Of a stretch of 64,000 bases of DNA, positions 3,883 to 43,008 are shown piece after piece. Below the pieces are notes generated by a model. It did no database searches. It saw only the letters and a list, made by a program, of their open reading frames with translations, and was not told the DNA's origin. Location of the stretch: NCBI GenBank assembly GCA_044870335.1, contig JBIOYV010000111.1, forward strand, positions 61,943-125,942, given 5' to 3'. The position numbers were made by a program, and so were the translations under genes. The first letter of the stretch is position 1. Each line of letters begins with the position of its first letter. The DNA comes from Burkholderiales bacterium (GTDB lineage Bacteria > Pseudomonadota > Gammaproteobacteria > Burkholderiales > SG8-39).

Positions 3883-4428
3883 TCAGCTCAGGTTTCGGCG
3901 GCTGCGTTTCAATCCCCATTGCCGGCGCCGCATCCACAGCGCCTTGCGGCCGATGCCGAGCATGCGCGCGAGCTCGATCTCGCTGTGCGAGTCCTGGAAG
4001 CGCTCGACCACCTCGCGGATGTAGTCCTCGATCGCGAGCGGACGTCCGCCCGTCAGCGGCATGCGGCGCTGGGCGAGCGCGCGCGCCACCGCGCGCAGGA
4101 ACTCGTCGTTGTTGAACGGCTTCATCACATAGTCGACCGCGCCGCCGCGCAGCGCGGCGATCGCGCTCTCGATCGACGAGTAGCTGGTGATCATGATGAT
4201 CGGCAGCCGAGGCCTGCGGGCGCGGACCGCGGCGATGACCTCGAGGCCGGTGCCGTCGGGCAGCTTGAGATCCGTGATCACGAGGTCCGGCTCGGCGGCG
4301 TCGACGCGGGTCCTCGCTTCCTTCGCGCTGCCCGCGCGCTGCACGGCATAGCCCTCGCGCTCGAGGAGCAGGCCGACCACCTCGGACACGCCGGGATCGT
4401 CTTCGATGAGCAGGACGCGCTCGTTCAT
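3883..4428 (-). CDS. response regulator: REC domain plus C-terminal Fis-type HTH, with no sigma54 AAA domain
   Basis: D-box LLIEDD, DLKLPDG and a C-terminal HTH. ATGA overlap with the kinase gene upstream. Confidence 0.85.
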   Translation of the reverse strand: MNERVLLIEDDPGVSEVVGLLLEREGYAVQRAGSAKEARTRVDAAEPDLVITDLKLPDGTGLEVIAAVRARRPRLPIIMITSYSSIESAIAALRGGAVDYVMKPFNNDEFLRAVARALAQRRMPLTGGRPLAIEDYIREVVERFQDSHSEIELARMLGIGRKALWMRRRQWGLKRSRRNLS

Positions 4429-32038: not shown

Positions 32039-32744
32039 AGAGCGCCGGTTCCCAGTAGCGCACGGCGAGCATCACGCTGAGCGGGTAGCGCTGCTCGAGC
32101 GGCAGGCGCGAGTCGGCACGGTGCTGGTCGTCGTATTCGCGCGCCACCTGCTCGAGGCGCCGCAGCAGCGCCATGCGGGCTTCGCCCGAGACCCGGACCG
32201 TGACCATGCGCATGAACTCGCCTGGACCCTCGAACGCGTGATTGAAGAAGTCCGGCGCCTGCGAGCGCGCGTAGCGCATGATCGGCCCGTCCGGGTTCCA
32301 GGCGAAGGTGCGCGCGAGGCGCAGCCGGATGCGGTTGTTCTCGTGCACCTCGACGATGCCGATGCGCTCGAGCTTCAGCAGCAGCTTGACGCACTGCGCC
32401 TCGTCCAGATCGTAGAGGTGGACGATCTCGTCCACGCGCATCTGCTGGATCGCGCAGATGGCGACCAGGAGCAGCGCCGGTTCGGCCATCAGCTCCTGCT
32501 CCTGCTGCGGCGTGAGCCGGCTGATGAGCTTGTCGTCGCGCGGGGCGCCGCGCGCCAACTCGGCGAGGTCCACCTGGAGCAGGTCGCAGATCGAGTCGAG
32601 CCGCTCGAGCGTGCAACTCTTGGTCGCGAAGATGCGCTTGACGGTGGCCTCCGAGATCTTGAGCGCGCGTGCGACCTCGGCGTAAGTCATGCCGCGCGCC
32701 TTGAGGTGCATCCGGAGGCCATCGAATACGAACGCAGAGGACAC
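32004..32744 (-). CDS. XRE-family (Cro/C1 HTH) transcriptional regulator with a C-terminal domain of unknown function
   Basis: HTH LKARGMTYAEVARALKISEATVKRIF. GTG start at 32744 lies 6 nt after GAAAGG. Convergent with the upstream gene and overlaps it by 35 nt. Confidence 0.75.
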   Translation of the reverse strand: MSSAFVFDGLRMHLKARGMTYAEVARALKISEATVKRIFATKSCTLERLDSICDLLQVDLAELARGAPRDDKLISRLTPQQEQELMAEPALLLVAICAIQQMRVDEIVHLYDLDEAQCVKLLLKLERIGIVEVHENNRIRLRLARTFAWNPDGPIMRYARSQAPDFFNHAFEGPGEFMRMVTVRVSGEARMALLRRLEQVAREYDDQHRADSRLPLEQRYPLSVMLAVRYWEPALFKALRRPATRR

Positions 32745-32855
32745 GGCGGGCCTTTCGGGCGAGAAAGTTTCACCGGATGATACTTTAGAGTCGATATTCT
32801 TGAACCGCGTCGCATCATATTGAACGCGACTAGGGGGTCGGCATACTGCCCGCCC

Positions 32856-35387
32856 ATGAGCCGTGCACTCCCCTACCTCTGGTACCCGCTCATCTTTGCG
32901 GCGGCGATCGCCGGCTTCGCCGCCATGCTTTCGGCCGGGTTACCGCTTGCCGCCGCGACCTATGCGCCGGTCGCCGCCGCGGCGCTGGCGGTCGTGGTGC
33001 TCGAGCTCGCCTTTCCCGAGCGCCTCGATTGGCGTCCGCGGCGCGCGGACGTCGCCGCCGATGCGGCCTTCATGGCGTTCGTGCAGATCCTGCTGCCGCG
33101 GGTGCTGGCCGCGTCTGTGGTTCTCGGGCTCGCCGCCTGGGCGCACGAGCGTGCGCCCAGCCCTTGGTGGCCGCACGACTGGCCGCTCGGCGGGCAGATG
33201 GTGCTCATGGTTTTGGCGGTGGACTTCCTGCGCTATTGGCTGCACCGGGCCTGCCATGCCTATCTGCCGCTCTGGCGCCTGCACCAGGTCCACCACTCGC
33301 CGGACATCCTCTATGCGCTCAACGTCGGGCGCTTCCATCCGCTCGAGAAGGCGCTGCATTTCGCCTGCGACAGCGCGCCGTTCCTGCTGCTCGGCGTGGC
33401 GCCCGAGGTGGTCGCGGGCTATTTCCTCCTCTACGCAGTGAACGGTTTCTTCCAGCACAGCAATGTGCGCCTGCGCTACGGCTGGCTCAACTACGTGGTC
33501 GGCAGCGCGCAGACGCATCGCTGGCACCATGCCCGCGATCCGCGCCTGGCGCACTGCAACTTCGGCAGCAGTACTCTCCTCTGGGATCTCGCCTTCGGCA
33601 CCTGGCAGCTGCCGCAAGACGCGCCGGTAGACGACATCGGCATCATGGACCGCGCCTATCCCAGGGGCTTCTGGGCGCAGATGGGAGCACCGTTCCGCGC
33701 CGCAGCGCCGCGGTACGGCATCGCCCGGCGCATCGCGGATCTCGTCATCCCCGCGTACCTGCGGCTGGCGAGCATCGTGCATTCCTGGCGGCTCGGCCGC
33801 GCGGCGCGCAACCCGATGCGCGTCCAGAGGGCGCTGCTCGAGCGGATCCTGCGCGATAACCGCGCCACTTCGTTCGGACGCCAGCACGGCTTTGCGCGTG
33901 TTCGCGACTATGCCGGCTACGTGGGCGCGGTGCCGGTGATGGATTTCGAGGCGCTGCGTCCGTATATCGAGGCCGAGATCGAGCGCGGGGAGCAAGCCCT
34001 GACCGCCGAGGCGCCGCGGCAATACCTGCGCACCAGCGGCTCGACCGGAAAGCCGAAGGACATTCCACTCACTGCGACGCACCTGCGCGCGCTGCGCGCC
34101 ATCCAGCGCACCTCCGTCGCGTTCCAGCACCGCGTCTGCCCGGAAGCGTTCCGCGGCAGCATCCTCGCCATCGTGAGCCCGGCGGAGGAGGGCAGGCTCG
34201 CGAACGGCAAGCCCTACGGCGCCGCCTCCGGCATCGTCGCCGCCGGCACACCCGCGCTGGTACGCGAGAAGTTCGTGCTGCCCGCGGACGCGCTGGCGGT
34301 TGCCGACGCGCGCGTGAAGTACCTGCTCATCCTGCGCCTGTCGCTGGCGCGGCGCGATATCACCTATTTCGGCTCGGCGAACTCGACCACGCCGCTCGCA
34401 CTGATGAAGCTCTATCGCGAGTACCACGCTGAGCTGATCGCGGACGTGCGCAACGGCGGGTTCTTCTGCGCCGGCAAGCTTGCGGCCGGCACGCGTGCGG
34501 CGCTGCGCCGACGCCTCGAGCCGGACCCGGCGCGCGCCGACGAGCTGGCGGCGCTGCACGCCGGGGGTGCCGTGCCGCGAATGGCCGAGCTGTGGCCCGA
34601 GCTGCGCATGGTCGTGACCTGGACCTGCGGCAGCGCGGGCGTGAGCGTCGCCGCGCTGCGGCGCGAGCTCGCGCAGCGCACGCGCGTCTTCGAGCTCGGG
34701 TACGTGGCGAGCGAGTTCCGCGGCACGCTGACGCTCGGCAGCCAGGCCGGCACCGGCCTGCCGACCTTCGATACGCATTTCTTCGAGTTCGTCGAGCGTG
34801 CGAAATGGGACCGCGGCGAGCCCGAGTACGTAACGCTCGGCGAGCTGCGCAAGGGCGTCGACTACTACGTGATCGTCACGACGGCGGCGGGCCTGTACCG
34901 CTATTTCATCAACGATCTCGTCCAGGTCACCGGCTTCCTGCACGCGACGCCGCTTTTCAGATTCATGCAGAAGGGAAAGGGCGTGACCAATATCACCGGC
35001 GAGAAGCTCTACGAGTCGCAGCTGCTTCAGGCGGTCCGCGCCGCGATGGGGAAGCTCGGCCTCGATGCGCGCTTCGTGATGATGCTCGCCGACGAGGCGG
35101 CCTGCGCCTATCGCCTCTACGTCGAGCCCGACCGCGTCCCGGCGGTCGCGGCGGCGCGCCTCGCTGGCGAGGTCGATGCGCGGCTGCGCAAGCTCAACGT
35201 CGAATACGAAGGCAAGCGCGACAGCGAGCGGCTCGCTGCGCCCAGCGCCGCGTGGTTGCGTCCCGATACCGGTGAGGCATACAAGCGCCATTGCGTGGCC
35301 CGCGGACAGCGCGAGGGGCAGTTCAAGTGCCCCGTGCTTGCCTATCGCCGGTCCTTCGGCTTCGACCTGGAAGCCTACGTGCAATGA
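32856..35387 (+). CDS. fusion protein: N-terminal fatty-acid hydroxylase / sterol desaturase family membrane domain plus C-terminal GH3 (acyl-acid amido synthetase) family domain
   Basis: His-box motifs HRACH, HQVHHSP and HRWHH in the N-terminal TM domain. GH3-like motifs in the C-terminal ~560 aa (SGSTGKPK, YASSE-like, GLYRY). A single continuous frame of 843 aa. Confidence 0.8.
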   Translation: MSRALPYLWYPLIFAAAIAGFAAMLSAGLPLAAATYAPVAAAALAVVVLELAFPERLDWRPRRADVAADAAFMAFVQILLPRVLAASVVLGLAAWAHERAPSPWWPHDWPLGGQMVLMVLAVDFLRYWLHRACHAYLPLWRLHQVHHSPDILYALNVGRFHPLEKALHFACDSAPFLLLGVAPEVVAGYFLLYAVNGFFQHSNVRLRYGWLNYVVGSAQTHRWHHARDPRLAHCNFGSSTLLWDLAFGTWQLPQDAPVDDIGIMDRAYPRGFWAQMGAPFRAAAPRYGIARRIADLVIPAYLRLASIVHSWRLGRAARNPMRVQRALLERILRDNRATSFGRQHGFARVRDYAGYVGAVPVMDFEALRPYIEAEIERGEQALTAEAPRQYLRTSGSTGKPKDIPLTATHLRALRAIQRTSVAFQHRVCPEAFRGSILAIVSPAEEGRLANGKPYGAASGIVAAGTPALVREKFVLPADALAVADARVKYLLILRLSLARRDITYFGSANSTTPLALMKLYREYHAELIADVRNGGFFCAGKLAAGTRAALRRRLEPDPARADELAALHAGGAVPRMAELWPELRMVVTWTCGSAGVSVAALRRELAQRTRVFELGYVASEFRGTLTLGSQAGTGLPTFDTHFFEFVERAKWDRGEPEYVTLGELRKGVDYYVIVTTAAGLYRYFINDLVQVTGFLHATPLFRFMQKGKGVTNITGEKLYESQLLQAVRAAMGKLGLDARFVMMLADEAACAYRLYVEPDRVPAVAAARLAGEVDARLRKLNVEYEGKRDSERLAAPSAAWLRPDTGEAYKRHCVARGQREGQFKCPVLAYRRSFGFDLEAYVQ

Positions 35388-36484
35388 AGCTCGAATCGCT
35401 CCAGGCAAGCGCGCTCGCCATTTCCTTCCGGCACTCGTTCAGGCATGCGTCGGCCGAGCGTTCTGCCACGCAGGCGATCTGGGTCGCGGCACGCGCGTGC
35501 GGCGCCGCAGGCTACGGCGAGGGTTGTCCGCGCGAGTACGTCACCGCCGAGAGCGTGCGGAGCGCGCAAGTCTTCGTGGCTGCGCATCTGCACGAATGGA
35601 GCGGCGAGCTGCTCGACGCGCCGTGGTTGCGTGGCTGGACGGCGAAGCGCGAACGCGAGATCGACGCTCATCCCGCGGCGTGGACGGCGGTGGAGCTCGC
35701 TATGCTGGACCTGCTGGGGAAGACCGGGTCCAGGCCGGTGGAGGCGCTGCTCGGACTGCCCGCCCTGGCGGGTCGCTTCCAATATACGGCGGTGCTCGGC
35801 GACGCGCCGCCTGCCGCCTTCGAGGCGCAGCTTGCGCGCTACCGCGGCGCCGGTTTCCGTGATTTCAAGATCAAGCTCTCCGGCGAGCCGGCACGCGACG
35901 CGGCGAAGGTGAGCGTGCTGCGAGCCGCGGGCATCGCGCCCGAGCGCGTGCGCGCCGACGCCAACAATCTGTGGCCGGACGCGGGCGCCGCGATCGCAGC
36001 TCTCGAGGCGCTCGATTATCCCTTCGCCGCGCTCGAAGAGCCGCTGCGCGCCGGCGACCACGAAGGCATGGCGCGCGTCGGCCGGGCGCTCGGGAGCGCC
36101 ATCATCCTCGACGAAAGCGTGGCGCGCGCGAGCCAGCTCGAAACGTTGCCGGCGCATGGCAGCTGGATCGTCAATTTGCGGATCTCGAAAATGGGCGGTG
36201 TCCTGCGATCGCTGGAGTTCCTGAACGAGGCGCGCCGACTCGGTGTGCCAGTCGTCATCGGTGCGCACGTCGGCGAGACCAGCGTGCTGACACGCGCCGC
36301 GCTTACCGTGGCGAGCGTTGCGGGCGACGTTCTGATCGCGCAGGAAGGCGCGTTCGGCACCCACCTCCTCGAGCGCGACGTGGCCGAGGCGCCGCTCATG
36401 TTCGGCGCCGGTGGCGCGCTGGAAGTCGCGCCGGCGATGGCGGCAGCGCCGGGCTGGGGCCTCGCGATCCGTGAGCCCACGTAG
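35384..36484 (+). CDS. enolase-superfamily enzyme (mandelate racemase/muconate lactonising / dipeptide epimerase-like)
   Basis: Barrel-domain motifs (KIKLSG..., DANN, LEEP, DES, KMGG). ATGA overlap with the fusion gene. Confidence 0.85.
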   Translation: MKLESLQASALAISFRHSFRHASAERSATQAIWVAARACGAAGYGEGCPREYVTAESVRSAQVFVAAHLHEWSGELLDAPWLRGWTAKREREIDAHPAAWTAVELAMLDLLGKTGSRPVEALLGLPALAGRFQYTAVLGDAPPAAFEAQLARYRGAGFRDFKIKLSGEPARDAAKVSVLRAAGIAPERVRADANNLWPDAGAAIAALEALDYPFAALEEPLRAGDHEGMARVGRALGSAIILDESVARASQLETLPAHGSWIVNLRISKMGGVLRSLEFLNEARRLGVPVVIGAHVGETSVLTRAALTVASVAGDVLIAQEGAFGTHLLERDVAEAPLMFGAGGALEVAPAMAAAPGWGLAIREPT

Positions 36485-38195
36485 CCTCTTCGCCTGGCTG
36501 CTCGCCGCCGTGCTTGCGGTCGCCAGCGCAGGGTGCACCACCGTAGTCGGCCAGTTTTTCCTGCCGAAAGAGGGCGTGCGGGAAGCGGGCTACGCGGTCG
36601 AGCGGCAAAAGGGCGTCGCCTTCGATACTTCCGACGGCATCGCGCTGGTGGCCGATCTTTATCGACCCAGAACGCAGGAGAAGAGGCCGACGATCCTGGT
36701 GCGAATTCCATTTTCCAGCACCTTCAAGAACCGCCTCGCGGTCGATACCGTCGGCGAGTTCTGGGCGAGTCGCGGCTACAACGTGGTGATCCAGGGAACT
36801 CGCGGGCGCTACAAATCGGGCGGTGAGTTCTATCCGCTGCTCTACGAAGAGGCTGACGGGCGCGAAACGCTGCAATGGCTCGCGCGCCAGCCCTGGTTCG
36901 ACGGCCGCCTGGGGATGTGGGGCGGCTCGGCGTTCGGTCATACCCAGTGGGTGCTGGCGGGTGACGAGGCCCCCGGACCGGGCGTGCTCATGATCCAGAT
37001 CGCCAGCACCAGCTTTCGCGAGATGTTCCATCCGGGAGGCGCGTTCTCGCTCGAGTCCGCGCTGTTCTGGGCGGCGCGCAGCCACGGACGCGAAGACCGC
37101 GATCCCTCGTTCGACGCGCTCGAGCGCGGGTTCGCCGGGTTTCCATTGATCGAGGCCGACGACCGCGCCGTCGGCGACGTCGCCTTCTTCAACGACTGGG
37201 CGCGTCACGTCGACGCGGACGATTACTGGCGTCGCATCGACGGGACCGATCGTGCCGGCACGCTCAGGGCGCCAGTGCTCCTCATGGCGGGCTGGTATGA
37301 CCCGTTCCTGCCGACGCAGCTGCGCGACTTCGAAACCGTGCGGCGCGAAGCGGCGCCCGGCGTCGCGGCGGGCAGCCGGCTCATCGTCGGACCCTGGACG
37401 CACGCCGACCCGGTGCGGTTTCCCGACGGCTCGACCGCGGGCGACTACCGGCCAGCGAGCCTCGCGCCGAGCCTGCCGTGGTTCGACCATCATCTGCTCG
37501 GCAAGCCGCTCGCCCCATCGCTTGCCGCGCCGGTGCGCATCTACGTCATGGGCGAAAACCAATGGCGCGACGAGCGGGAATGGCCGCTCGCCCGCGCACG
37601 TTACGTACCCTATTACCTGGGAAGGGGTGGCCGCCTAGCGCAAAGCCCGCCGGGCGATGAGCCACCGGACTCCTACGTATGCGATCCGCGGCAGCCGGTA
37701 CCCTCGCGCGGCGGCGCCATGCTCGGTCCGCGCGCCGGCATAGCATTGCAAAACGACATCGAGGCACGCACCGACGTGCTCCTCTACACCACCGCGGCCC
37801 TCGAGCAGGACACCGAAGTCACTGGGCCGATCCGGGCGCTGCTCTACGTGTCCACCACGGCGCCAAATACGGATTTCACCGTCAAGCTGGTGGACGTCCA
37901 CCCGGACGGCAAGGCGTACAACATCTCCGACGGCATCCTGCGGCGCGCGTATCCCGAGCAGGCGCGCGAAACCCCGCAGGAAATCGTCGTCGAGCTCTGG
38001 CCGACCAGCATGCTCTTCCGGCGCGGCCATCGCGTGCGCGTCGAGGTCTCGAGCAGCAACTATCCGCGCTACGACCGCAATCCGAACACCGGCCGCGACA
38101 TCGCCACCGAAACCGAGCCGCGGCCGGCGACGCAGACCGTGTTCCACAGCGCCGTGGCGCCGTCGCGCATCATCCTGCCGCTGGTCCCGCGCTAG
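36471..38195 (+). CDS. CocE/NonD-family (S15 X-Pro dipeptidyl-peptidase-like) hydrolase, lipoprotein
   Basis: Lipobox LAVASAGC. GxSxG-like motif GGSAFG. C-terminal beta-sandwich. GTG start at 36471 assumed; an ATG at 36411 is an alternative. Confidence 0.75.
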   Translation: MSPRSLFAWLLAAVLAVASAGCTTVVGQFFLPKEGVREAGYAVERQKGVAFDTSDGIALVADLYRPRTQEKRPTILVRIPFSSTFKNRLAVDTVGEFWASRGYNVVIQGTRGRYKSGGEFYPLLYEEADGRETLQWLARQPWFDGRLGMWGGSAFGHTQWVLAGDEAPGPGVLMIQIASTSFREMFHPGGAFSLESALFWAARSHGREDRDPSFDALERGFAGFPLIEADDRAVGDVAFFNDWARHVDADDYWRRIDGTDRAGTLRAPVLLMAGWYDPFLPTQLRDFETVRREAAPGVAAGSRLIVGPWTHADPVRFPDGSTAGDYRPASLAPSLPWFDHHLLGKPLAPSLAAPVRIYVMGENQWRDEREWPLARARYVPYYLGRGGRLAQSPPGDEPPDSYVCDPRQPVPSRGGAMLGPRAGIALQNDIEARTDVLLYTTAALEQDTEVTGPIRALLYVSTTAPNTDFTVKLVDVHPDGKAYNISDGILRRAYPEQARETPQEIVVELWPTSMLFRRGHRVRVEVSSSNYPRYDRNPNTGRDIATETEPRPATQTVFHSAVAPSRIILPLVPR

Positions 38196-38207
38196 CCACT
38201 CCAAGCT

Positions 38208-39311
38208 CTACCGCAGCGCGCTGTAGACCTCGGCGAGCGAGCGCTTCCCGCCTTGTCCGGCGGCAAGTGCGAGCGACGCCCGGGCCAGCTTCTCCGCATC
38301 GCCCGCCGCGATCTCGGCCGCCAGGGCCTGCGCTTCCGCGCTGGTCAGCGAGCGCACATGGATTCGGGCGAAGCAGCGTCCCGGGCGGATCAGCGCGTCG
38401 TCCAGGTCGCCGACGTTCGGCAGGTTGGTCGAGAAGATGATCTTGCGTCCCTGCGCGCGCACCACGCCGTCGGCGATGGCGAGAAAGCGGTGCAGATGCT
38501 GGTTGCCGTCGGCGCGCGGCTTGAGCAGGTGGTCCGCGTCCTCGACGATGAACGCTTCATCCTCGCCGGTGATGAATTTGACGAAGATCTGGTCGCTGGA
38601 GAGTGCCCTCATGTCGCCGGTGTACATGGCGCGTGCTTCCTCGCCCTTGCGCCGCGACATCTCGCCGAGGATGGCGCGGATCAGCCGCGTCTTGCCGGTG
38701 CCCGGCGGCCCCTGCAGCACGAGCACGGTTTCCGGCGCGGCCAGGTAGCGCGCGATAAAGGGTTTCACGCCTTCCCTGATCTCGGGATAGGCGCGGTCGC
38801 GCAGGTCGTCGTCGGCCATCTCCTCGATCGACGCGCTCTCCAGGTCGTTACCCGAGAGAAAGTGCCAGTCGATCGAGAACATCGGCTCGGTGATGCGGGT
38901 CGAGCCGGCCTTGTCGAGCAGCCGCTGCTTTGCGGCCTCGGCGCGCGCCAGGTCGGCCGCCCAGATGTAGAAGGAGCAGGAGCAGTAATCGGCCTTGCGG
39001 CTGCCGTACGCGGCGACGAACAGCCCATCGCCGTCGAGGAGCATCGCCTCGGCGTGGATGCGCTCTGCGCGCCAAGCCGGGTCGAGCGCGATCGCGTCGA
39101 GCAGCACCTCGAGCTCGACGCGCGCTGCGAAGCGCAGCACACGGTAAGCGGGGTAGCGCGAGACGCCGTCCTCGAGGGCACGGGCCATGCGGTTCTCCAG
39201 CACCAGGGCGCCCAGGTAGTTGACGTGCCGCGTCAGCCCGCTGAACTGCTTGTATTGGTCGTTTTTCATGTCTCTCACAAAAAAACGGCCGACCCAAGGG
39301 CCAGCCGTCAA
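38208..39311 (-). CDS. AAA+ family ATPase with a ~190-aa N-terminal domain of unknown function
   Basis: Walker A GPPGTGKT, Walker B FIVEDAD, sensor/arginine finger region. TTG start overlaps the SPFH gene stop (TTGA). Confidence 0.8.
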   Translation of the reverse strand: MTAGPWVGRFFVRDMKNDQYKQFSGLTRHVNYLGALVLENRMARALEDGVSRYPAYRVLRFAARVELEVLLDAIALDPAWRAERIHAEAMLLDGDGLFVAAYGSRKADYCSCSFYIWAADLARAEAAKQRLLDKAGSTRITEPMFSIDWHFLSGNDLESASIEEMADDDLRDRAYPEIREGVKPFIARYLAAPETVLVLQGPPGTGKTRLIRAILGEMSRRKGEEARAMYTGDMRALSSDQIFVKFITGEDEAFIVEDADHLLKPRADGNQHLHRFLAIADGVVRAQGRKIIFSTNLPNVGDLDDALIRPGRCFARIHVRSLTSAEAQALAAEIAAGDAEKLARASLALAAGQGGKRSLAEVYSALR

Positions 39312-40453
39312 CGGATCTTCACCAGATCCTTCAGCACCGCGTCGAGGCCACCGAACACCGAGATCTTGTCGATCTTCTCGGTAACCTTCTCCAGAGTCTC
39401 CAGCTCCTTCAGCCGCAGCGCGGTCGGGTTGTCTTCCATCACCCGGGCGGTGTTCAGCAGCGAACGGGTAGCCGAGGTTTCCTCACGGCGGCGGATCACG
39501 TTCGCCAGCGCGGCCTTCTCGGCCTCCACCACCTTCGCCAGGATCACCTTCATCTCACCCGGCAGGATGATGTCCTTCACGCCGACCGAGTCGACTTCCA
39601 GGCCGAAGCCCTCCACGCGGCGCTTGATGTGCTCCGCCACCACCTGGTCGATCAGCCCCTTGTTCTCGAGCAGCTCGTCCAGGGTACGGGTACCCACCGC
39701 GGCACGCAGGCCGAACTGGAGCTCCTTGTACAGGTAGTCCGCCGGCTTCGCCTGCTTGCCGAACGCCACCAGCACGTCGGTCACACGGTAGCCCGCGTTC
39801 AGGTTCACGCGCAGCGGGACCTTGTCCTTGGTCAGGATTTCCTGACCCGCCACTTCCAGAACCTGCAGGCGCAGATCCACGAACTCGACGCGCATGTCGC
39901 GGCCGAAGCGGTAGAAGGCGCGCAGGCCGGCATCCAACACGTATGCCAGCTTGCCGTCGACGTATACGACGCCCACGTTGAACTGCGGCACCTGCACGCC
40001 GTACACGTCTTCAGCGCCGGGCACCTTCGCCTTGAAGCCGTTCGCAGTCAGAGTGATCAGCTGCGGTACCAGCTTCGGGTCGACGGTGAAGTCGGTCGCG
40101 ATGTCGACGCGCTCGAACTCCTGTTCGAGGTAGCCCTTGAAGTACAGGCGGCGGGTGTTCGGCGCCAGCATCTCGGCGAGCACGCCGTTCTCGACGCGCA
40201 GGCCGACCTCGGCCGTGCCGAGCTCGACCACGTGGAACTCGCGCGCCACGGCTTCCGGCTCCGCCTTCACCAGGAACTCGGCCAGGCGGTGCTCGAAGCG
40301 CGGCTGTGCCAGACCGAACTTCTCGACGGTCAGGCGGTGCAGCGGGTCGAAGCGAACGTGCTCGCCCGGACGCAGGATCTCGACGAAGTCGCCGCGCTCG
40401 AACAGCAGCGCGCGCTCATCCTTCTTCACATGAAACTTCCGAAACAGCATCAT
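39308..40453 (-). CDS. SPFH/band-7 (slipin-type) protein
   Basis: SPFH domain followed by a C-terminal coiled coil. RBS AAGGAG lies 7 nt before ATGATG at 40453. Confidence 0.85.
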   Translation of the reverse strand: MMLFRKFHVKKDERALLFERGDFVEILRPGEHVRFDPLHRLTVEKFGLAQPRFEHRLAEFLVKAEPEAVAREFHVVELGTAEVGLRVENGVLAEMLAPNTRRLYFKGYLEQEFERVDIATDFTVDPKLVPQLITLTANGFKAKVPGAEDVYGVQVPQFNVGVVYVDGKLAYVLDAGLRAFYRFGRDMRVEFVDLRLQVLEVAGQEILTKDKVPLRVNLNAGYRVTDVLVAFGKQAKPADYLYKELQFGLRAAVGTRTLDELLENKGLIDQVVAEHIKRRVEGFGLEVDSVGVKDIILPGEMKVILAKVVEAEKAALANVIRRREETSATRSLLNTARVMEDNPTALRLKELETLEKVTEKIDKISVFGGLDAVLKDLVKIR

Positions 40454-40714
40454 TTGTTTTCTCCTTTGTTTCTCCCTTAAAGAAACCACTTCTTAAAAAA
40501 ATCGGGAATCCGGCCTCCCGGGCGCCCGACGGGCTCCGCCGCGCACGCGGGGGAAAGCAGCGGTGCACCTCACAGAGATCCTTCCTGTGAATGCAGCGTT
40601 GCCTCGCCCGCAGGCGCCGCACGGCGCACTCGGCCTGGAACCCGGTGCGTGAGCGCGATGCTCTGCGCACACGCTGAAGCCGGCCCCGTACTGCGTTACT
40701 GCAGCCAACGTTAC

Positions 40715-40788
40715 AAGTTGGAGCGGGATTCGAACCCGCGACAGATCGGTTTTCAGCCGATTGCTCTACCCGTCTGAGCTATCCAGAT
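40715..40788 (-). tRNA. tRNA-Phe(GAA)-like. Two acceptor-stem mismatches, no encoded CCA. Possibly a pseudogene.
   Basis: D-arm GCTCAGACGGGTAGAGC, anticodon arm ATCGG-CTGAAAA-CCGAT and T-arm GCGGGTTCGAATCCCGC read by hand. Its first nucleotide is shared with the CCA end of the adjacent tRNA-Met. Confidence 0.5.
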
Positions 40789-40862
40789 GGTGGCGAGAGT
40801 GAGAGTCGAACTCACGACCTCCGCCTTATGAGAGCGTTGCTCTACCGCTGAGCTATCTCGCC
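40788..40862 (-). tRNA. tRNA-Met(CAT)
   Basis: Acceptor GGCGAGA/TCTCGCC, anticodon loop CTCATAA, T-loop TTCGACT, A73 then CCA. Confidence 0.7.
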
Positions 40863-41311
40863 CAACATTCGTCGCTCCCACGCCGCGGTACACGCCACGC
40901 CGATGTTCCAGGCAGGCGCGCCAGGGAGGACTCACGAGCCTCGCCCGCTGCGAACGCGTTCACGAAGAATTCTTGCTACGGATGTGGCAAAGCTTTGGGG
41001 GGACCTGCCGGAGTCGCACCGGCACTTGCGGATTCACATTCCGCTGTGCTGCTGTTACACCAAGATCTCCATCGAATCGGTGATGGCGCGCCTGACAGGA
41101 CTCGAACCTGAACCGACGGATTACCCGGGCATTACTCCGGGCCGCGCTGCGCTTGGAAACGCGCTTCCCTTCAGAACCGTCATCGGACCCTGTCGGTGCA
41201 TCCGCAACCATGCCCGCTCACGCGTTTGCAAATCCGCCTCCGCTCTTAACGGCACCCTTCGTCACTCGTTTTGGGTGTGCACTTTCCCTGTTGTGCGACA
41301 GGCGCTTGCTC

Positions 41312-41387
41312 TGGCTGTCCAGGCAGGCTTCGAACCTGCAGCCCGCGCCTTAACAGGGCGCCGCTCTACCGGTTGAGCTACTGGACA
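41312..41387 (-). tRNA. tRNA-Asn(GTT)
   Basis: Full cloverleaf: TGTCCAG-TA-GCTC-AACCGGTA-GAGC-G-GCGCC-CTGTTAA-GGCGC-GGGCT-GCAGG-TTCGAAG-CCTGC-CTGGACA-G-CCA (76 nt). Confidence 0.85.
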
Positions 41388-41394
41388 AAAGGAC

Positions 41395-41470
41395 TGGTAC
41401 CGGCCCGTGGTCTCGAACCACGCACCTCCCGCTTATCGAGCGGGTGCTCTTCCGGATGAGCTAGACCAGT
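41395..41470 (-). tRNA. tRNA-Ile(GAT)-like (unusual C33)
   Basis: Acceptor ACTGGTC/GGCCGGT with two G-U pairs. Anticodon loop TCGATAA. T-arm CGTGG-TTCGAGA-CCACG. CCA encoded. Confidence 0.6.
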
Positions 41471-41473
41471 GTC

Positions 41474-41548
41474 TGGCGGGGGCGCCTGGATTCGAACCAG
41501 GGACATCCGGCGTCAGAGGCCGGCGTTCTGCCGCTGAACTACGCCCCG
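41474..41548 (-). tRNA. tRNA-Gln(CTG)
   Basis: Anticodon arm CCGGC-CTCTGAC-GCCGG. T-arm CCTGG-TTCGAAT-CCAGG. C1-C72 mismatch. CCA encoded. Confidence 0.7.
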
Positions 41549-41550
41549 GC

Positions 41551-41626
41551 TGGCGCTTCCCCTCCGTTTCGAGCGGAGCTCTCCGGATCTTCAAACCGGC
41601 GCTGTCACCAGACCAGCTAGAGAAGC
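41551..41626 (-). tRNA. tRNA-Phe(GAA)-like with a non-canonical T-loop (CTCGAAA)
   Basis: Acceptor GCTTCTC/GGGAAGC. Anticodon loop TTGAAGA with a 31-39 mismatch. T-arm CTCCG-CTCGAAA-CGGAG (C54). Confidence 0.55.
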
Positions 41627-41632
41627 GTGAAT

Positions 41633-41708
41633 TGGTACTCGGTGATGGGGTCGAGCCATCGTCCTCCCGCTTGTGAGGTGGGCGCTCTTCGCACTGAGCT
41701 AACCGAGC
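41633..41708 (-). tRNA. tRNA-Val(CAC)-like with a non-canonical T-loop (CTCGACC)
   Basis: Acceptor GCTCGGT/ACCGAGT. Anticodon loop CTCACAA. T-arm GATGG-CTCGACC-CCATC. Confidence 0.6.
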
Positions 41709-41711
41709 ATT

Positions 41712-41787
41712 TGGTCGGCGCGGCAGGAGTTGAACCTGCAACCTTCTGATTAAGAGTCAGCTACTCTCGCCATTGAGTTACGCGCCG
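41712..41787 (-). tRNA. tRNA-Lys(CTT)
   Basis: Acceptor CGGCGCG/CGCGCCG. Anticodon loop CTCTTAA. T-arm GCAGG-TTCAACT-CCTGC. Confidence 0.7.
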
Positions 41788-41799
41788 TGTAGATAGTTT

Positions 41800-41875
41800 T
41801 GGCGGCACCGGCGGGACTTGAACCCGCGACCTCCTGCTCGACAAGCAGGCACTCTGTCTTCTGAGTTACGGCGCC
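41800..41875 (-). tRNA. tRNA-Asp(GTC)
   Basis: Acceptor GGCGCCG/CGGTGCC. Anticodon arm CCTGC-TTGTCGA-GCAGG. T-arm GCGGG-TTCAAGT-CCCGC. Confidence 0.8.
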
Positions 41876-41881
41876 ATTGAG

Positions 41882-41959
41882 TGGTACCTCCGGAAGGATT
41901 CGAACCCTCGGCCTCGCGGTTCGTAGCCGCGCGCTCTGGTTCCGCTGAGCTACGGAGGT
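41882..41959 (-). tRNA. tRNA-Arg(ACG)
   Basis: Acceptor ACCTCCG/CGGAGGT. Anticodon arm CGCGG-CTACGAA-CCGCG. T-arm GAGGG-TTCGAAT-CCTTC. Confidence 0.8.
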
Positions 41960-41964
41960 GTTGA

Positions 41965-42051
41965 TGGTTGAGCGGGAAGGATTTGAACCTTCACGGAACT
42001 GGCCGACCTCGGGGTTACGGCGCGGTGCCCTGCCTCATGGGCGTCCGCTCG
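41965..42051 (-). tRNA. type-II (long variable arm) tRNA-like gene, 87 nt. Anticodon arm not resolvable. Possibly a Tyr/Leu/Ser-type pseudogene.
   Basis: T-arm GAAGG-TTCAAAT-CCTTC resembles the E. coli tRNA-Tyr T-arm. Acceptor CGAGCGG/CCGCTCA with a C1-A72 mismatch. CCA encoded. No complementary anticodon stem found. Confidence 0.45.
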
Positions 42052-42057
42052 GTTGTA

Positions 42058-42134
42058 TGGTCTCGCCGGCAGGATTCGAACCTGCGGTCTCCTCGTCCCG
42101 AACGAGGCGCGCTGGCCGGCTGCGCTACAGCGAG
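42058..42134 (-). tRNA. tRNA-Pro(CGG)
   Basis: Anticodon arm CCTCG-TTCGGGA-CGAGG is identical to the E. coli tRNA-Pro(CGG) loop. T-arm GCAGG-TTCGAAT-CCTGC. Acceptor CTCGCTG/CGGCGAG. Confidence 0.85.
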
Positions 42135-42147
42135 GGAAGAAAATTGC

Positions 42148-42222
42148 TGGCATTCCCGGCCGGATTCGAACCGGCATCCACGGCTTGAAGGGCCGCGGTC
42201 CTGACCGTTAGACGACGGGAAC
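42148..42222 (-). tRNA. tRNA-Glu(TTC)
   Basis: GTTCCCG-TC-GTCTAACGGTCAGGAC...CCTTCAA...GCCGG-TTCGAAT-CCGGC-CGGGAAT-G-CCA. Closely parallels E. coli tRNA-Glu. Confidence 0.85.
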
Positions 42223-42361
42223 GTCGTAAATCGCGGGCGCAAGCCCGCCACCCCGCCGCGCGGCCCATGGGCCAACCGAGGGCACGTTGCGCGCGGCGGG
42301 GTCGTTTGCCACATCCAAGTTGTAAAAGAGCGGCGCGAGCTTTCGCTCACGCGAAAAAATC

Positions 42362-42438
42362 TGGTGCCCCACCCGGGATTCGAACCCGGAGCAGCGTGTT
42401 TCTGAGACACGCGCGTATGCCGATTCCGCCAGCGGGGC
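42362..42438 (-). tRNA. tRNA-Leu(CAG)-like lacking the long variable arm (77 nt). Atypical, possibly a pseudogene or non-canonical tRNA.
   Basis: Leu-type D-arm TG-GCG-GAATCGGCATA-CGC. Anticodon arm CGTGT-CTCAGAA-ACACG. Only a 5-nt variable region. T-arm CCGGG-TTCGAAT-CCCGG. Acceptor GCCCCGC/GTGGGGC. Confidence 0.6.
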
Positions 42439-42496
42439 GTTCGGGTCGCGGCACTCGGAAAATGCCGCGACCGGAATGCCGGTCCGCGAAGGCAAC

Positions 42497-42540
42497 AAAA
42501 AGCCCGGGGACCTTGCGGCGCACCCGGGCTCGGACGGACG
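42497..42540 (-). terminator. rho-independent terminator (minus-strand sense), copy 2 of a repeated ~45-bp element
   Basis: In minus-strand sense: hairpin gcccgggtgcgccgcaaggtccccgggc followed by tttttgt. Shares the consensus aCAAAAAGCCCGG...CCGGGCTyGGAyGG with the element at 42713. Confidence 0.6.
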
Positions 42541-42712
42541 ACCAGCGATTACTTGATCGCTAGAAGGCCTCCTCCGCTCGGTGCGCGCGCGTATCCGCCT
42601 CGCATGGCGCGATGGGCTTTCGCTGTTGCTCGAGTCGCAAATGCCGGTTCATCGAAATTCGATCCATATCCGTTCTCCTAACGCCGTGCTTGCAGCGGCG
42701 TTGACGCCCCAG

Positions 42713-42756
42713 AAACAAAAAGCCCGGAGCGCTCGCGCGGTCCGGGCTTCGGATGG
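42713..42756 (-). terminator. rho-independent terminator (minus-strand sense), copy 1 of the repeated element
   Basis: In minus-strand sense: hairpin gcccggaccgcgcgagcgctccgggc followed by tttttgtttc. Confidence 0.6.
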
Positions 42757-42817
42757 GCGCAAAGCGCTTACGCGATCTTCGTCTCCAGATCGGCGTCTCT
42801 ATCAAGTCGCTTCGGTT

Positions 42818-42848
42818 GCGTCGTGTGCATGTGCAAGGGCGCGCATTG
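42818..42848 (-). promoter_or_regulatory. strong sigma70-like promoter (TTGACT-N16-TACAAT) pointing toward lower coordinates. Embedded in a palindrome tcttgac-N9-gtcaaga.
   Basis: Minus-strand sense reads ctcTTGACTttggatctgtcaagacTACAATgcg. The same region carries TTGACA hexamers in plus-strand sense upstream of the 43009 gene. Confidence 0.55.
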
Positions 42849-43008
42849 TAGTCTTGACAGATCCAAAGTCAAGAGAATTTCTTGACACCGCCGCAGCCGC
42901 GACGAGTTCTAAGCCGAGGGTGCGCAAAAGGCAGTACGACCTGCGCCTGGAAATAAGTAGGTCCGAGGGATCGCTTTCGAAGGCGCAGAATTTAGACAGA
43001 GTGTTCCC

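What the first reader, a model, noticed from the sequence alone, without database searches (positions are those of the whole stretch)
42440..43008. Strong outward promoter, two tandem copies of a terminator-containing repeat, and a possible ~100-nt sRNA upstream of the tRNA array
In minus-strand sense there is a near-consensus promoter TTGACT-N16-TACAAT at about 42818-42848. About 60 nt downstream a hairpin plus U-tract terminator follows (42713-42756). A second, sequence-related terminator lies at 42497-42540, before the tRNA-Leu-like gene. The promoter is embedded in the palindrome tcttgac-N9-gtcaaga and faces TTGACA hexamers that could serve the divergent 43009 gene. The layout predicts a short terminated transcript (about 42715-42812), a candidate sRNA, and terminators that insulate the tRNA array.
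Basis: seen in the sequence. Interest (0 to 1): 0.55.

Follow-up and report, generated by a model that had tools for sequence, protein, structure and literature searches.

The report
Terminator-gated leader of a tRNA-array operon
This stretch is the conserved control region in front of a cluster of extra tRNA genes: one strong promoter, then two short reading frames that each end just before a transcription stop signal, so the tRNA genes can only be expressed when RNA polymerase reads through both stops.

Summary
The features are real, but the promoter is misplaced by about 25 nt. On the minus strand it is TTGACT-N16-TACAAT at 42872..42845, followed by a GC-rich discriminator.

The block recurs in about 16 sequence variants from soil Burkholderiales metagenomes, in at least 8 genomic contexts. 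It always heads one module: promoter, short ORF-A, T1, hairpin, SD plus short ORF-B, stop-codon hairpin, T2, tRNA-Leu, boxA-like element, tRNA array, sometimes a GerE regulator, an SPFH/slipin gene, an AAA ATPase.

It is the only sigma-70-like promoter for this module. In most variants T2 ends 5-10 nt before the first tRNA. The terminators therefore gate the array rather than insulate it.

The ORF-B peptide is not conserved, but its SD, start and stop position are. Folding simulations suggest that a ribosome on the distal part of ORF-B favours T2, and that a lagging or absent ribosome favours an alternative fold. Column-wise covariation does not confirm that antiterminator.

Best reading: a tandem attenuator leader, probably ribosome-dependent. 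The roughly 125-nt T1-terminated RNA is its expected by-product and could also act as an sRNA. There is no Rfam, phage or plasmid match.

The parts
42845..42872 (-). Sigma-70-type promoter: -35 TTGACT (42872..42867), 16-nt spacer, -10 TACAAT (42850..42845)
   Evidence: It matches 10 of 12 consensus positions. The -35 TTGAC[T/A] and the -10 NANAAT are kept at a 16-17 nt spacing in 16 variants, while the spacer sequence varies freely.
42837..42844 (-). GC-rich discriminator GCGCGCCC. The transcription start is inferred at about 42836 +/- 3.
   Evidence: The motif [G/C]CGCGCC(C) is invariant in all 16 variants. Its resemblance to the discriminators of stable-RNA (rrn/tRNA) promoters is from memory. 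The start site is inferred, not mapped.
42852..42886 (.). Three 7-nt half-sites on the + strand: tcttgac (42852-58), gtcaaga (42868-74), tcttgac (42880-86). They overlap the promoter and could be an operator.
   Evidence: Read directly from the sequence. They are kept only in the nearest relatives next to the DAO gene and are not part of the conserved module.
42768..42830 (-). ORF-A, 20 codons (MHTTQPKRLDRDADLETKIA). AUG is at 42830 and the stop UAA at 42770..42768. In this window it has no SD and a 5' UTR of only about 6-8 nt.
   Evidence: An in-frame short ORF ending 18-24 nt before T1 exists in every variant that has unit 1, at 15-45 codons. Some variants have a good SD; for example L032 has AGGAG 5 nt upstream. 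Translation in this window is uncertain.
42711..42750 (-). T1 intrinsic terminator: stem GAAGCCCGGA/UCCGGGCUU, inner CGC-GCGA-GCG with a GNRA tetraloop, tail UUUUUGUUU
   Evidence: Fold predictions. One stem pair covaries: G-C in 6 variants, A-U in 2, G-U in 1. The tetraloop varies between GCGA and GCAA. P(T1) is about 0.97 and no competing fold was detected.
42703..42797 (-). Helix P1 (GACGCC 42797..42792 with GGCGUC 42708..42703), which encloses the T1 domain. It can form only in read-through RNA.
   Evidence: RNAalifold predicts it, and the pair at columns 69/154 takes three forms (G-C 3, C-G 2, U-A 1). In L029 and L033 the interior is deleted but the stem remains as a hairpin.
42680..42702 (-). 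Hairpin H2 (AACGCCG...CGGCGUU), which abuts the ORF-B Shine-Dalgarno
   Evidence: It is conserved in all variants, with variable loops and one compensatory A-U to G-C change.
42560..42679 (-). SD AGGAG (42679..42675) and ORF-B, 35 codons (MDRISMNRHLRLEQQRKPIAPCEADTRAHRAEEAF). AUG is at 42667 and the stop UAG at 42562..42560.
   Evidence: The SD, the AUG and a stop codon inside hairpin H3 are kept across ORF lengths of 31, 33, 34, 35, 38 and 49 codons. The peptide is not conserved: dN/dS is 0.4-1.3 and no better than in shifted frames.
42576..42611 (-). Regions 1 (about 42611..42597) and 2 (about 42594..42576) inside ORF-B. They pair with each other. Region 2 can alternatively pair with the T2 5' arm and loop, making it a candidate antiterminator strand.
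   Evidence: The 1:2 helix has support: 91.6% of cells paired and covariation above 500 of 500 shuffles. The 2:3 pairing has only thermodynamic support and is not confirmed column-wise.
42532..42575 (-). Long hairpin H3. The lower stem pairs GGAGGAGGCC with GGUCGUCCGUCC and the apical stem pairs AGCGAU with AUCGCU. It contains the ORF-B stop codon.
   Evidence: The apical stem covaries (G-C, A-U and G-U; A-U and C-G). The purine-rich strand and the pyrimidine-rich strand stay complementary in the divergent L030 and L035.
42494..42531 (-). T2 intrinsic terminator: stem GAGCCCGGG/CCCGGGCUU, inner stem capped by the GNRA tetraloop GCAA, tail UUUUUGUU
   Evidence: Fold predictions. The tetraloop varies among GCAA, GUAA and GAAA, and the bulged base varies among C, U and A. 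In most variants it ends 5-10 nt before tRNA-Leu.
42436..42480 (-). Extra hairpin immediately 5' of tRNA-Leu
   Evidence: Inverted repeat I4 has 18-nt arms that are 89% complementary. It is present only in the window and the L021 group. L034 has an analogous hairpin.
42362..42438 (-). tRNA-Leu(CAG), the first gene of the array in every variant
   Evidence: ARAGORN and Rfam tRNA at 56.3 bits.
42305..42352 (-). rrn-leader-like antitermination element: hairpin (42352..42333), boxA-like GCTCTTTTACAA (42331..42320), GU-rich CTTGGATGTGGCA
   Evidence: It matches 10 of 11 positions of the gammaproteobacterial boxA consensus GYTCTTTAANA (PMC5725501). It is conserved in L014, L017, L020, L021, L030, L032 and L035, while the preceding hairpin changes sequence.
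40715..42222 (-). The remaining 13 tRNA genes of the array
   Evidence: ARAGORN and Rfam.
38208..40489 (-). Co-oriented SPFH/slipin gene (39308-40489) and AAA ATPase gene (38208-39311), the distal genes of the module
   Evidence: Pfam Band_7 and AAA. Both are linked to the leader and array in L017, L020, L021, L023, L030, L032 and L035.

Best explanation
The interval is the 5' leader of a conserved, horizontally mobile operon made of a tRNA array, sometimes a GerE regulator, an SPFH/slipin gene and an AAA ATPase gene.

Shown or strongly inferred:
- One stable-RNA-type sigma-70 promoter (42872..42845, with a GC-rich discriminator) starts all transcription of the module.
- Two tandemly duplicated units lie between it and the first tRNA. 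Each is a short ORF whose stop codon sits 20-35 nt upstream of a strong GNRA-capped intrinsic terminator (T1, T2).
- The tRNAs can be made only by read-through. After tRNA-Leu a boxA-like element probably makes RNA polymerase processive through the untranslated array.

Inferred mechanism, about 0.4-0.45 on its own:
- T2 is a ribosome-dependent attenuator. When a ribosome translating ORF-B keeps pace with polymerase and covers the last 12 or so codons (region 2), T2 folds and transcription stops.
- When ribosomes are absent, slow or stalled earlier in ORF-B, region 2 pairs with the 5' arm and loop of T2 and polymerase reads on.
- The extra tRNAs and the SPFH/AAA pair would then be switched on when translation falters.

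T1 appears to be a plain, efficient terminator. It lowers the flux and releases an RNA of about 125 nt.
For: Conservation and linkage:
- The whole layout recurs in about 16 variants.
- Upstream neighbours differ: a DAO oxidoreductase, a P450, a VWA/DUF7939 pair, a GGDEF protein, a cupin, a thioredoxin and a HEAT/GDSL pair.
- The array, SPFH and AAA genes follow the leader.

Promoter:
- The hexamers, their spacing and the discriminator are conserved while the spacer is free to vary.
- It is the only sense-strand promoter-like site in the module in three independent loci.

No room for another promoter:
- T2 ends 5-10 nt before tRNA-Leu in L014, L017, L018, L020, L030, L032 and L035.

Terminators:
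- Both are canonical. T1 stem pairs covary, and the loop variation respects the GNRA pattern.

ORF-B behaves like a regulatory uORF:
- The SD and AUG are conserved.
- The frame and a stop codon inside hairpin H3 are kept through at least 5 length classes.
- The peptide is unconstrained.

Structure:
- Helix 1:2 and hairpin H3 are supported by covariation.
- The native upstream sequence lowers the equilibrium probability of T2 relative to dinucleotide shuffles in 11 of 12 variants. The fractions of shuffles at or below native range from 0.00 to 0.31 in those 11, against 0.84 in L029.
- A simulated 28-nt ribosome footprint placed mid-ORF drops P(T2) to 0.02-0.06, against a median of about 0.99 for shuffled ORF bodies. 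This was seen in the window, L020 and L032.
- A footprint on the last 12 or so codons gives P(T2) of about 1 in all 8 variants tested.
- In L030 and L035 region 2 reads GCAACC and the T2 loop reads GGUUGC. The other variants read GCACC and GGUGC. This is a matched insertion on both strands.

Context from the literature:
- Long tRNA arrays are reported as poorly transcribed by default and, in Anabaena, induced by translational stress (PMC8421152).
Against: - No transcript data exist. The start site, the 3' ends and read-through are all unmeasured.
- The antiterminator (2:3) is not supported by column-wise covariation at a fixed register: 69% of cells paired and no double changes. RNAalifold did not recover it.
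- Its duplex energy is no better than that of shuffled or random genomic sequence. P is about 0.3 for the window and below 0.05 in only 3 of 8 variants.
- The equilibrium predictions depend on how much context is folded. P(T2) without a ribosome is 0.92 with 60 nt of context and 0.012 with the full leader.
- T1 shows no competing structure.
- ORF-A in this window lacks an SD.
- No run of regulatory codons was found, and there is no enrichment of codons read by the array's tRNAs: 0.60 against 0.46-0.69 in ordinary genes.
- An open frame of 35 codons is not rare at 67% GC.
- The variants are related, so the combined statistics overstate independence.
Confidence: 0.55

Rival explanations
1. The block holds independent small genes. 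The promoter-to-T1 transcript is a trans-acting sRNA of about 125 nt, and ORF-B is a small-protein gene with its own terminator. The tRNA array downstream is expressed only by constitutive leakage through the terminators, and translation has no regulatory role.
For: - T1 is predicted to form with P of about 0.97 and has no competitor, so a discrete abundant short RNA is expected.
- The 3' 85 nt of that RNA is nearly invariant among the variants that carry the probe 22-mer. It is still close in L032, which was found independently.
- The L001 group keeps both units although it has lost the tRNA array.
- The antiterminator lacks column-wise covariation.
Against: - The near-invariance is partly due to ascertainment, because the loci were found with a 22-mer from this region. 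In L030 and L034 only the T1 hairpin itself is kept.
- Unit 1 is deleted in L029, L033 and L035 while the rest of the module persists.
- The ORF-B peptide is unconstrained, which argues against a functional small protein.
- Helix P1 covaries and can exist only in read-through RNA.
- There is no Rfam family match.
- The unit is never found away from the module genes: even in the L001 group, GerE and AAA follow it.
Confidence: 0.25
2. Read-through depends on a factor rather than on the ribosome. A protein, or a tRNA or other RNA, recognises the unusually conserved apical parts and flanks of T1 and T2 and prevents hairpin formation, as BglG/SacY, TRAP/PyrR or T-box systems do. The short ORFs would be incidental.
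For: - The apical regions of both terminators are more conserved than a terminator needs: CCGCGCRAGCGC in T1 and UGNGCCGNAAGG in T2.
- The two units share a 66-nt similarity that includes the pre-stem motif C(A/G)UCCGA. This is compatible with a repeated binding site.
Against: - Much of the loop conservation is explained by the GNRA caps and inner stems.
- No RNA-binding antiterminator gene is linked. The module proteins are a GerE DNA-binding regulator, an SPFH protein and an AAA ATPase.
- There is no T-box or other Rfam match, even at E <= 10.
- It does not explain the conserved SD, AUG, frame and stop position of ORF-B.
Confidence: 0.12
3. The terminators are insulators that stop unrelated upstream transcription from entering the tRNA array, and the array has its own promoter.
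For: Two strong terminators do lie upstream of the array.
Against: - The terminators lie downstream of, and at a fixed distance from, a promoter that is co-inherited with them.
- No other sense-strand promoter-like site exists in the module in three loci.
- The gap from T2 to tRNA-Leu is 5-10 nt in most variants.
Confidence: 0.05

Closest known systems
Leader-peptide (ribosome-mediated) transcription attenuators: trp/his/leu-type operon leaders, and the uORF-terminator leaders of antibiotic-responsive genes found by Term-seq
   Same: - A promoter, then a short translated ORF, then an intrinsic terminator ahead of the structural genes.
- An ORF-internal helix (1:2).
- A candidate alternative pairing of region 2 with the terminator's 5' arm.
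- A peptide sequence that is unconstrained.
   Different: - The regulated genes are tRNAs and an SPFH/AAA pair, not biosynthetic or resistance genes.
- There are two attenuator-like units in tandem.
- No run of regulatory codons was found.
- The stop codon is buried in a long hairpin about 30 nt before the terminator.
- The antiterminator is unproven.
- The sign of the response and the stall signal are unknown.
[quoted passage not shown] PCC 7120 trn operon (PMC8421152, PMC10272220)
   Same: - A supernumerary cluster of 8-19 tRNA genes with short spacers.
- A patchy distribution and many genomic contexts.
- Transcription from a single sigma-70-type promoter.
- Expected to be silent by default.
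   Different: - In Anabaena, control is at initiation, by the RHH repressor TrcR binding direct repeats over the -10 and the start site.
- Here the conserved control elements are post-initiation: two terminators with uORFs.
- Here the array is also linked to a boxA-like element and to GerE, SPFH and AAA genes.
rrn-operon leader antitermination (boxB-boxA-boxC with the Nus factors), and boxA upstream of CRISPR arrays (PMC7665894, PMC5725501)
   Same: - A hairpin followed by GCTCTTTTACAA, which matches 10 of 11 positions of GYTCTTTAANA, and then a GU-rich segment.
- The element sits at the head of a long untranslated RNA array.
- The promoter has an rrn-P1-like 16-nt spacer and a GC-rich discriminator.
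   Different: - It lies after two intrinsic terminators and after the first tRNA, not directly after the promoter.
- There is one mismatch in the core (position 8, A to T).
- The host's own rrn boxA is unknown.
- Nus-factor binding has not been tested.
Hfq-type trans-acting sRNA genes
   Same: - Its own promoter and a strong intrinsic terminator with a U tail.
- A size of about 125 nt.
- A conserved 3' half.
   Different: - It carries a conserved in-frame short ORF.
- It is physically and evolutionarily tied to the downstream operon.
- It is dispensable in some lineages of the module.
- No target or family match is known.

Membership tests
Sigma-70 promoter (stable-RNA type) | -35 and -10 hexamers at a 16-18 nt spacing, conserved in position while the spacer varies | tested here: met
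   10 of 12 consensus positions match. In 16 variants the -35 is TTGAC[T/A], the spacer is 16-17 nt and the -10 is NANAAT.
Sigma-70 promoter (stable-RNA type) | GC-rich discriminator between the -10 and the start site | tested here: met
   [G/C]CGCGCC(C) is invariant. The link to stringent control comes from established knowledge and was not tested.
Sigma-70 promoter (stable-RNA type) | Mapped transcription start site | not testable with these tools
   No transcript data are available.
Intrinsic (Rho-independent) terminator | Stable GC-rich hairpin immediately followed by a U tract | tested here: met
   T1 and T2 are shown. Their tails are UUUUUGUUU and UUUUUGUU.
Intrinsic (Rho-independent) terminator | Stem maintained by compensatory change | tested here: met
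   For T1, the pair at columns 114/139 is G-C in 6 variants, A-U in 2 and G-U in 1. The T2 stem is invariant, so it is uninformative. Its loop varies within the GNRA pattern.
Intrinsic (Rho-independent) terminator | RNA 3' ends at the U tract | not testable with these tools
   This needs Term-seq or in vitro transcription.
Ribosome-mediated transcription attenuator | Short ORF with a ribosome-binding site in the leader, upstream of the terminator | tested here: met
   ORF-B has an AGGAG or AAGGAG SD 5-9 nt before the AUG in all variants. ORF-A has an SD in only some variants and none in this window.
Ribosome-mediated transcription attenuator | Mutually exclusive antiterminator and terminator structures, with the antiterminator strand within reach of the translating ribosome | tested here: inconclusive
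   For: the thermodynamic tests, and the matched change in L030 and L035. Against: no column-wise covariation and duplex energy no better than shuffles. No competitor was found for T1.
Ribosome-mediated transcription attenuator | Regulatory codons or a defined stall site in the leader ORF | tested here: not met
   There are no codon runs. Codons read by the array's tRNAs are not enriched. The peptide is not conserved.
Ribosome-mediated transcription attenuator | Read-through that responds to translation | not testable with these tools
   This needs reporter fusions or coupled in vitro assays.
Trans-acting sRNA | Autonomous transcription unit (its own promoter and terminator) that is conserved | tested here: met
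   The promoter-to-T1 unit is conserved.
Trans-acting sRNA | Membership of a described RNA family | tested here: not met
   At gathering threshold Rfam 15 finds only tRNAs. At E <= 10 it finds nothing credible on the sense strand.
Trans-acting sRNA | Targets or chaperone binding | not tested
   The host genome is not available for target prediction.
rrn-type boxA antitermination element | Match to the boxA consensus GYTCTTTAANA, preceded by a hairpin | tested here: inconclusive
   10 of 11 positions match (GCTCTTTTACA). The motif is conserved in 7 or more variants, with a hairpin of variable sequence upstream. The consensus is from PMC5725501. The host's own rrn boxA is unknown.
rrn-type boxA antitermination element | NusB/NusE binding and Rho resistance | not testable with these tools
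   This is an experimental question.
Long tRNA gene array (L-array) | Many tRNA genes at short spacing in one orientation, with a patchy distribution among relatives | tested here: met
   The window has 14 tRNAs in 1.7 kb and relatives have 8-19. The array is absent from L001-type relatives at the same locus.
T-box riboswitch | Specifier loop and T-box sequence, and a match to the covariance model | tested here: not met
   There is no Rfam hit at E <= 10.

The most novel reading that the evidence does not exclude
The leader may act as a translation speedometer. Tandem uORF-terminator attenuators would read how far ribosomes lag behind RNA polymerase. When translation slows, whether from tRNA depletion or cleavage, ribosome-targeting antibiotics or ribosome shortage, they would release a back-up tRNA set together with an SPFH/AAA (HflK/FtsH-like) pair. 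A boxA element would lock polymerase into a processive state once the checkpoints are passed. This would be a second way of making an L-array respond to translational stress, mechanistically unrelated to the Anabaena TrcR repressor. It would also be the first attenuator known to control tRNA genes.
Probability: 0.3. Interest if true: 0.8.

Novelty: new variant of a known kind. Interest (0 to 1): 0.62.

Why it matters
Long tRNA arrays are widespread, horizontally moving and mostly silent. How they are controlled is known for only one cyanobacterial case, where a repressor acts at the promoter.

This work defines a compact cis-element of about 380 nt that heads such an array in abundant, uncultured soil Burkholderiales. 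It contains a promoter, two uORF-terminator units and a boxA-like site. It is conserved enough to have been aligned across about 16 variants.

If the ribosome-dependent model holds, it couples tRNA supply directly to translational performance. It also gives a portable, testable sensor of translation stress.

The work further reveals an unreported genetic linkage between tRNA arrays and a set of three protein genes: a GerE regulator, an SPFH/slipin protein and an AAA ATPase. That linkage points to a shared stress function.

If the model is wrong, the locus still provides a conserved short RNA and a clear example of premature terminators inside a stable-RNA operon.

Tried and rejected
- Known RNA family: Rfam at gathering and at E <= 10 gave nothing on the sense strand. 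The weak + strand hit to Burkholderia Bp2_287 (21 bits against a gathering score of 70) rests only on the palindromic terminator stem.
- Phage or plasmid origin: blastn of the leader and array against plasmids and phages hit only the tRNA segments. The SPFH protein has no relative in IMG/VR.
- Known defence system: there is no PADLOC hit for SPFH and only weak P-loop matches for AAA.
- Functional small proteins: neither ORF has an NCBIfam hit. dN/dS is about 1 and no better than in shifted frames. Rejected.
- Regulatory codons matched to the array's tRNAs: the decodable fraction is 0.60, against 0.46-0.69 in ordinary genes. An apparent enrichment in the first 19 codons of the window's ORF-B does not hold in L016 or L020. 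Rejected.
- Antiterminator by duplex energy or longest helix: not better than shuffles or random genomic windows.
- Antiterminator by consensus folding and fixed-register counting: not recovered. It is kept only as a thermodynamic inference.
- Competitor structure for T1: none in most variants.
- A separate promoter for the array or the protein genes: none found in three loci.
- A + strand promoter built on the TTGACA hexamers for the 43009 gene: no -10 partner.
- A precise empty site in more distant genomes that carry the DAO gene: synteny is lost, so this is uninformative.
Full report
**What is in the sequence**

All features below read on the minus strand.
- The region contains TTGACT (42872..42867), a 16-nt spacer and TACAAT (42850..42845). 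This is the only minus-strand promoter-like site between 40000 and 44000.
- It is followed by GCGCGCCC (42844..42837).
- The two elements are related over 66 nt, not just over the stem. The local alignment score is 41, against 16.5 +/- 2.3 in 1000 shuffles with a maximum of 26.
- The motif CCGGGCTTTTTGTT occurs nowhere else in the 64 kb window.
- Fourteen tRNA genes follow on the same strand, at 42438..40715.
- After them come an SPFH/Band-7 gene and an AAA ATPase gene.

Each terminator is preceded by a short ORF.
- ORF-A runs 42830..42768. It has 20 codons and, in this window, almost no 5' UTR and no SD.
- ORF-B runs 42667..42560. It has 35 codons and an AGGAG 7 nt upstream of its start.
- A hairpin (H2, 42702..42680) abuts that SD.
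- The ORF-B stop codon lies inside a long hairpin (H3, 42575..42532), about 30 nt before T2.

**Comparative evidence**

- The closest MAG (L001; DAO protein 92% identical) keeps the whole block but lacks the tRNA array and the SPFH gene. Homology breaks exactly at the end of the T2 U tract.
- A metagenome scan used a 22-mer taken from between the ORF-A stop and T1. It returned 17 loci.
- Look-ups of SPFH homologues gave further, independently ascertained loci: L029 to L035.
- Together these give about 16 distinct leader variants.
- In all of them the -35 TTGAC[T/A], a 16-17 nt spacer of free sequence, a -10 of the form NANAAT and the discriminator [G/C]CGCGCC(C) are retained.
- T1 shows a compensatory G-C to A-U change with G-U intermediates.
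- Both terminators are capped by tetraloops that vary only within the GNRA pattern: GCGA/GCAA in T1 and GCAA/GUAA/GAAA in T2.
- H2 and H3 covary, as does a helix P1 that encloses the T1 domain.
- P1 can form only in RNA that has read through T1. It survives as a simple hairpin in L029 and L033, where the interior of unit 1 has been deleted.

**The unit belongs to a larger module**

- In different genomic neighbourhoods the leader is followed by the same series: tRNA-Leu(CAG), a hairpin plus GCTCTTTTACAA plus a GU-rich stretch, 8-19 tRNAs, often a small GerE/LuxR regulator, the SPFH gene and the AAA gene.
- Upstream neighbours include a DAO oxidoreductase, a P450, a VWA/DUF7939 pair, a GGDEF protein, a cupin, a thioredoxin and a HEAT/GDSL pair.
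- Individual lineages have lost parts. The window has lost GerE. L001 has lost the array and SPFH. L029 and L035 have lost unit 1. L016 has lost everything after T2.
- The GCTCTTTTACAA motif matches 10 of 11 positions of the gammaproteobacterial boxA consensus GYTCTTTAANA (PMC5725501). The hairpin before it changes sequence between variants, as a boxB-like element would.
- BoxA elements are already known to protect other long untranslated arrays (CRISPR arrays) from Rho (PMC7665894).

**Why these are not insulators**

- The promoter is the only sense-strand sigma-70-like site across the leader, array and protein genes in the window, L032 and L034.
- In most variants the T2 U tract ends 5-10 nt before the mature 5' end of tRNA-Leu. 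The tRNA precursor must therefore start upstream of T2.
- The terminators are thus premature terminators inside the array's own transcription unit.
- Two strong terminators in series predict a nearly silent array by default. That fits the report that L-arrays are poorly transcribed unless induced (PMC8421152).

**Are the short ORFs translated?**

- The peptides are not conserved. dN/dS is 0.4-1.3 and indistinguishable from shifted frames.
- There is no family hit, and a 35-codon open frame is unremarkable at 67% GC.
- For ORF-B, however, the SD and AUG are kept, with small indels that shift but preserve the SD.
- The ORF always ends at a stop codon inside H3. This holds although its length changes (31, 33, 34, 35, 38 and 49 codons) and although the stop changes from UAG to UAA where the hairpin sequence changes.
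- This is the signature of a uORF whose translation matters rather than its product.
- ORF-A is weaker. It is present in every unit 1, with a good SD in some variants (L032, L034, L016) but none in this window.

**Mechanism**

- RNAalifold on the region upstream of the T2 3' arm recovers an ORF-internal helix. Region 1 (about 42611..42597) pairs with region 2 (about 42594..42576). With H3, 91.6% of cells are paired and covariation exceeds all 500 shuffles.
- Region 2 can also pair with the T2 5' arm and loop.

Tests of that antiterminator gave mixed results.
- Against: its duplex energy and longest helix are no better than for shuffled or random genomic sequence.
- Against: a fixed-register count shows 69% pairing and no double changes.
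- For: the native upstream sequence lowers the equilibrium probability of the T2 stem, relative to dinucleotide shuffles, in 11 of 12 variants.
- For: a 28-nt "ribosome" mask placed mid-ORF lowers P(T2) to 0.02-0.06, against about 0.99 for shuffled ORF bodies, in three variants.
- For: a mask over the last 12 or so codons gives P(T2) of about 1 in all eight variants tested.
- For: L030 and L035 carry a matched insertion. Region 2 reads GCAACC and the T2 loop reads GGUUGC, where the others read GCACC and GGUGC.
- Caveat: the predictions are context-sensitive. The naked full leader gives P(T2) = 0.012, but a shorter construct gives 0.92.

My reading of these results:
- The robust part is that a ribosome on the distal part of ORF-B favours termination.
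- It remains open whether an untranslated leader reads through (a three-strand logic) or terminates (a four-strand, trp-like logic).
- T1 shows no competitor. It looks like a plain terminator that releases an RNA of about 125 nt.
- No regulatory codons were found.
- I therefore favour sensing of general translation rate rather than of one amino acid. I put about 0.4-0.45 on ribosome dependence and about 0.8 on the broader claim of an operon leader with premature terminators.

**Comparison with what is known**

- The parts are familiar: a sigma-70 promoter with a stable-RNA-like discriminator, intrinsic terminators, a leader uORF and a boxA-like site.
- The assembly and its cargo are not. I found no description of attenuators ahead of tRNA arrays, nor of a link between tRNA arrays and SPFH/AAA genes, in the searchable literature.
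- The one characterised L-array is controlled by a promoter-bound repressor (PMC8421152, PMC10272220).
- There is no Rfam, plasmid or phage match to the leader.

**Verdict**

- The sRNA-plus-insulator interpretation is only partly right.
- The best description is a tandem, terminator-gated leader of a mobile tRNA-array operon. It is probably a ribosome-dependent attenuator. This makes it a new variant of a known kind of control element.

Noticed in passing
window 42305-42352 (minus strand): After tRNA-Leu there is a hairpin, a boxA-like GCTCTTTTACAA (42331..42320) and a GU-rich CTTGGATGTGGCA. Together they resemble the boxB-boxA-boxC antitermination leader of rrn operons. The element is conserved in L014, L017, L020, L021, L030, L032 and L035, while the hairpin sequence varies.
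   Followed up: partly
window 42362-42438 (minus strand): The first array gene is called tRNA-Leu(CAG) but is only 77 nt long with a short variable region. Bacterial tRNA-Leu normally has a long variable arm, so its identity or role is unclear. It might be a processing handle. It is bracketed by T2 and the boxB-like hairpin.
   Followed up: no
window 41083-41170 and 41964-42050 (minus strand): Two further tRNA-like segments share the T-arm/acceptor repeat family (repeat finder family D1). Neither ARAGORN nor Rfam calls them, so they are probably degenerate tRNA genes. The second seems to have a long variable arm.
   Followed up: no
window 40503-40520 (minus strand); L032 4210-4229: A conserved terminator-like hairpin, CGGGAGGCCGGATTCCCG followed by a T run, lies between the last tRNA and the protein genes. 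It suggests another checkpoint before GerE, SPFH and AAA.
   Followed up: partly
window 38208-40489; L029, L031, L032, L033, L034: The tRNA array is genetically linked to an SPFH/slipin gene and an AAA ATPase (an HflK/FtsH-like pairing without a protease domain). In many relatives a 68-85 aa GerE/LuxR regulator is also present, but the window lacks it. The SPFH family has more than 7900 database relatives at E <= 1e-20, mostly from soil metagenomes. There is no PADLOC match.
   Followed up: partly
module boundaries: window about 38208 and about 42890; loci L017, L023, L029, L030, L032, L034, L035: The same module sits in at least 8 unrelated genomic neighbourhoods. Homology starts within about 15 nt upstream of the -35. 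No integrase, transposase or flanking repeat was seen, so how it moves is unexplained.
   Followed up: partly
L034 2938-3013; L030 4581-4657; L029 about 4335-4410: Related arrays contain unusual members. One tRNA has anticodon TTA and is called 'tRNA-Stop', which looks like an ochre suppressor. One has a 4-base anticodon call. One is a degenerate tRNA-like remnant.
   Followed up: no
window 42852-42886: Three alternating 7-nt half-sites (tcttgac / gtcaaga / tcttgac) overlap the promoter. They are kept only in the closest relatives next to the DAO gene. They could be a local operator or could have arisen by duplication of the -35 region. L001 has a 68-nt insertion that duplicates the TTGACTTT segment.
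   Followed up: partly
window 32038-38208: Relative to L001 and L021, the window carries about 6 kb of extra genes, including an S15 X-Pro dipeptidyl-peptidase. They lie between the AAA gene and the homologue of the 534-aa 'MLDWLK...' gene (window 30434-32038).
   Followed up: no
window 40715-42438: The array's 14 anticodons read 21 codons. These make up 46-69% of the codons in neighbouring protein genes, and they are the GC-ending preferred codons (CTG, GAG, CCG, CGC, GAC, AAG, GTG, TTC, CAG, ATC, AAC, CAC). The array is therefore matched to the host's codon usage rather than to rare codons.
   Followed up: partly
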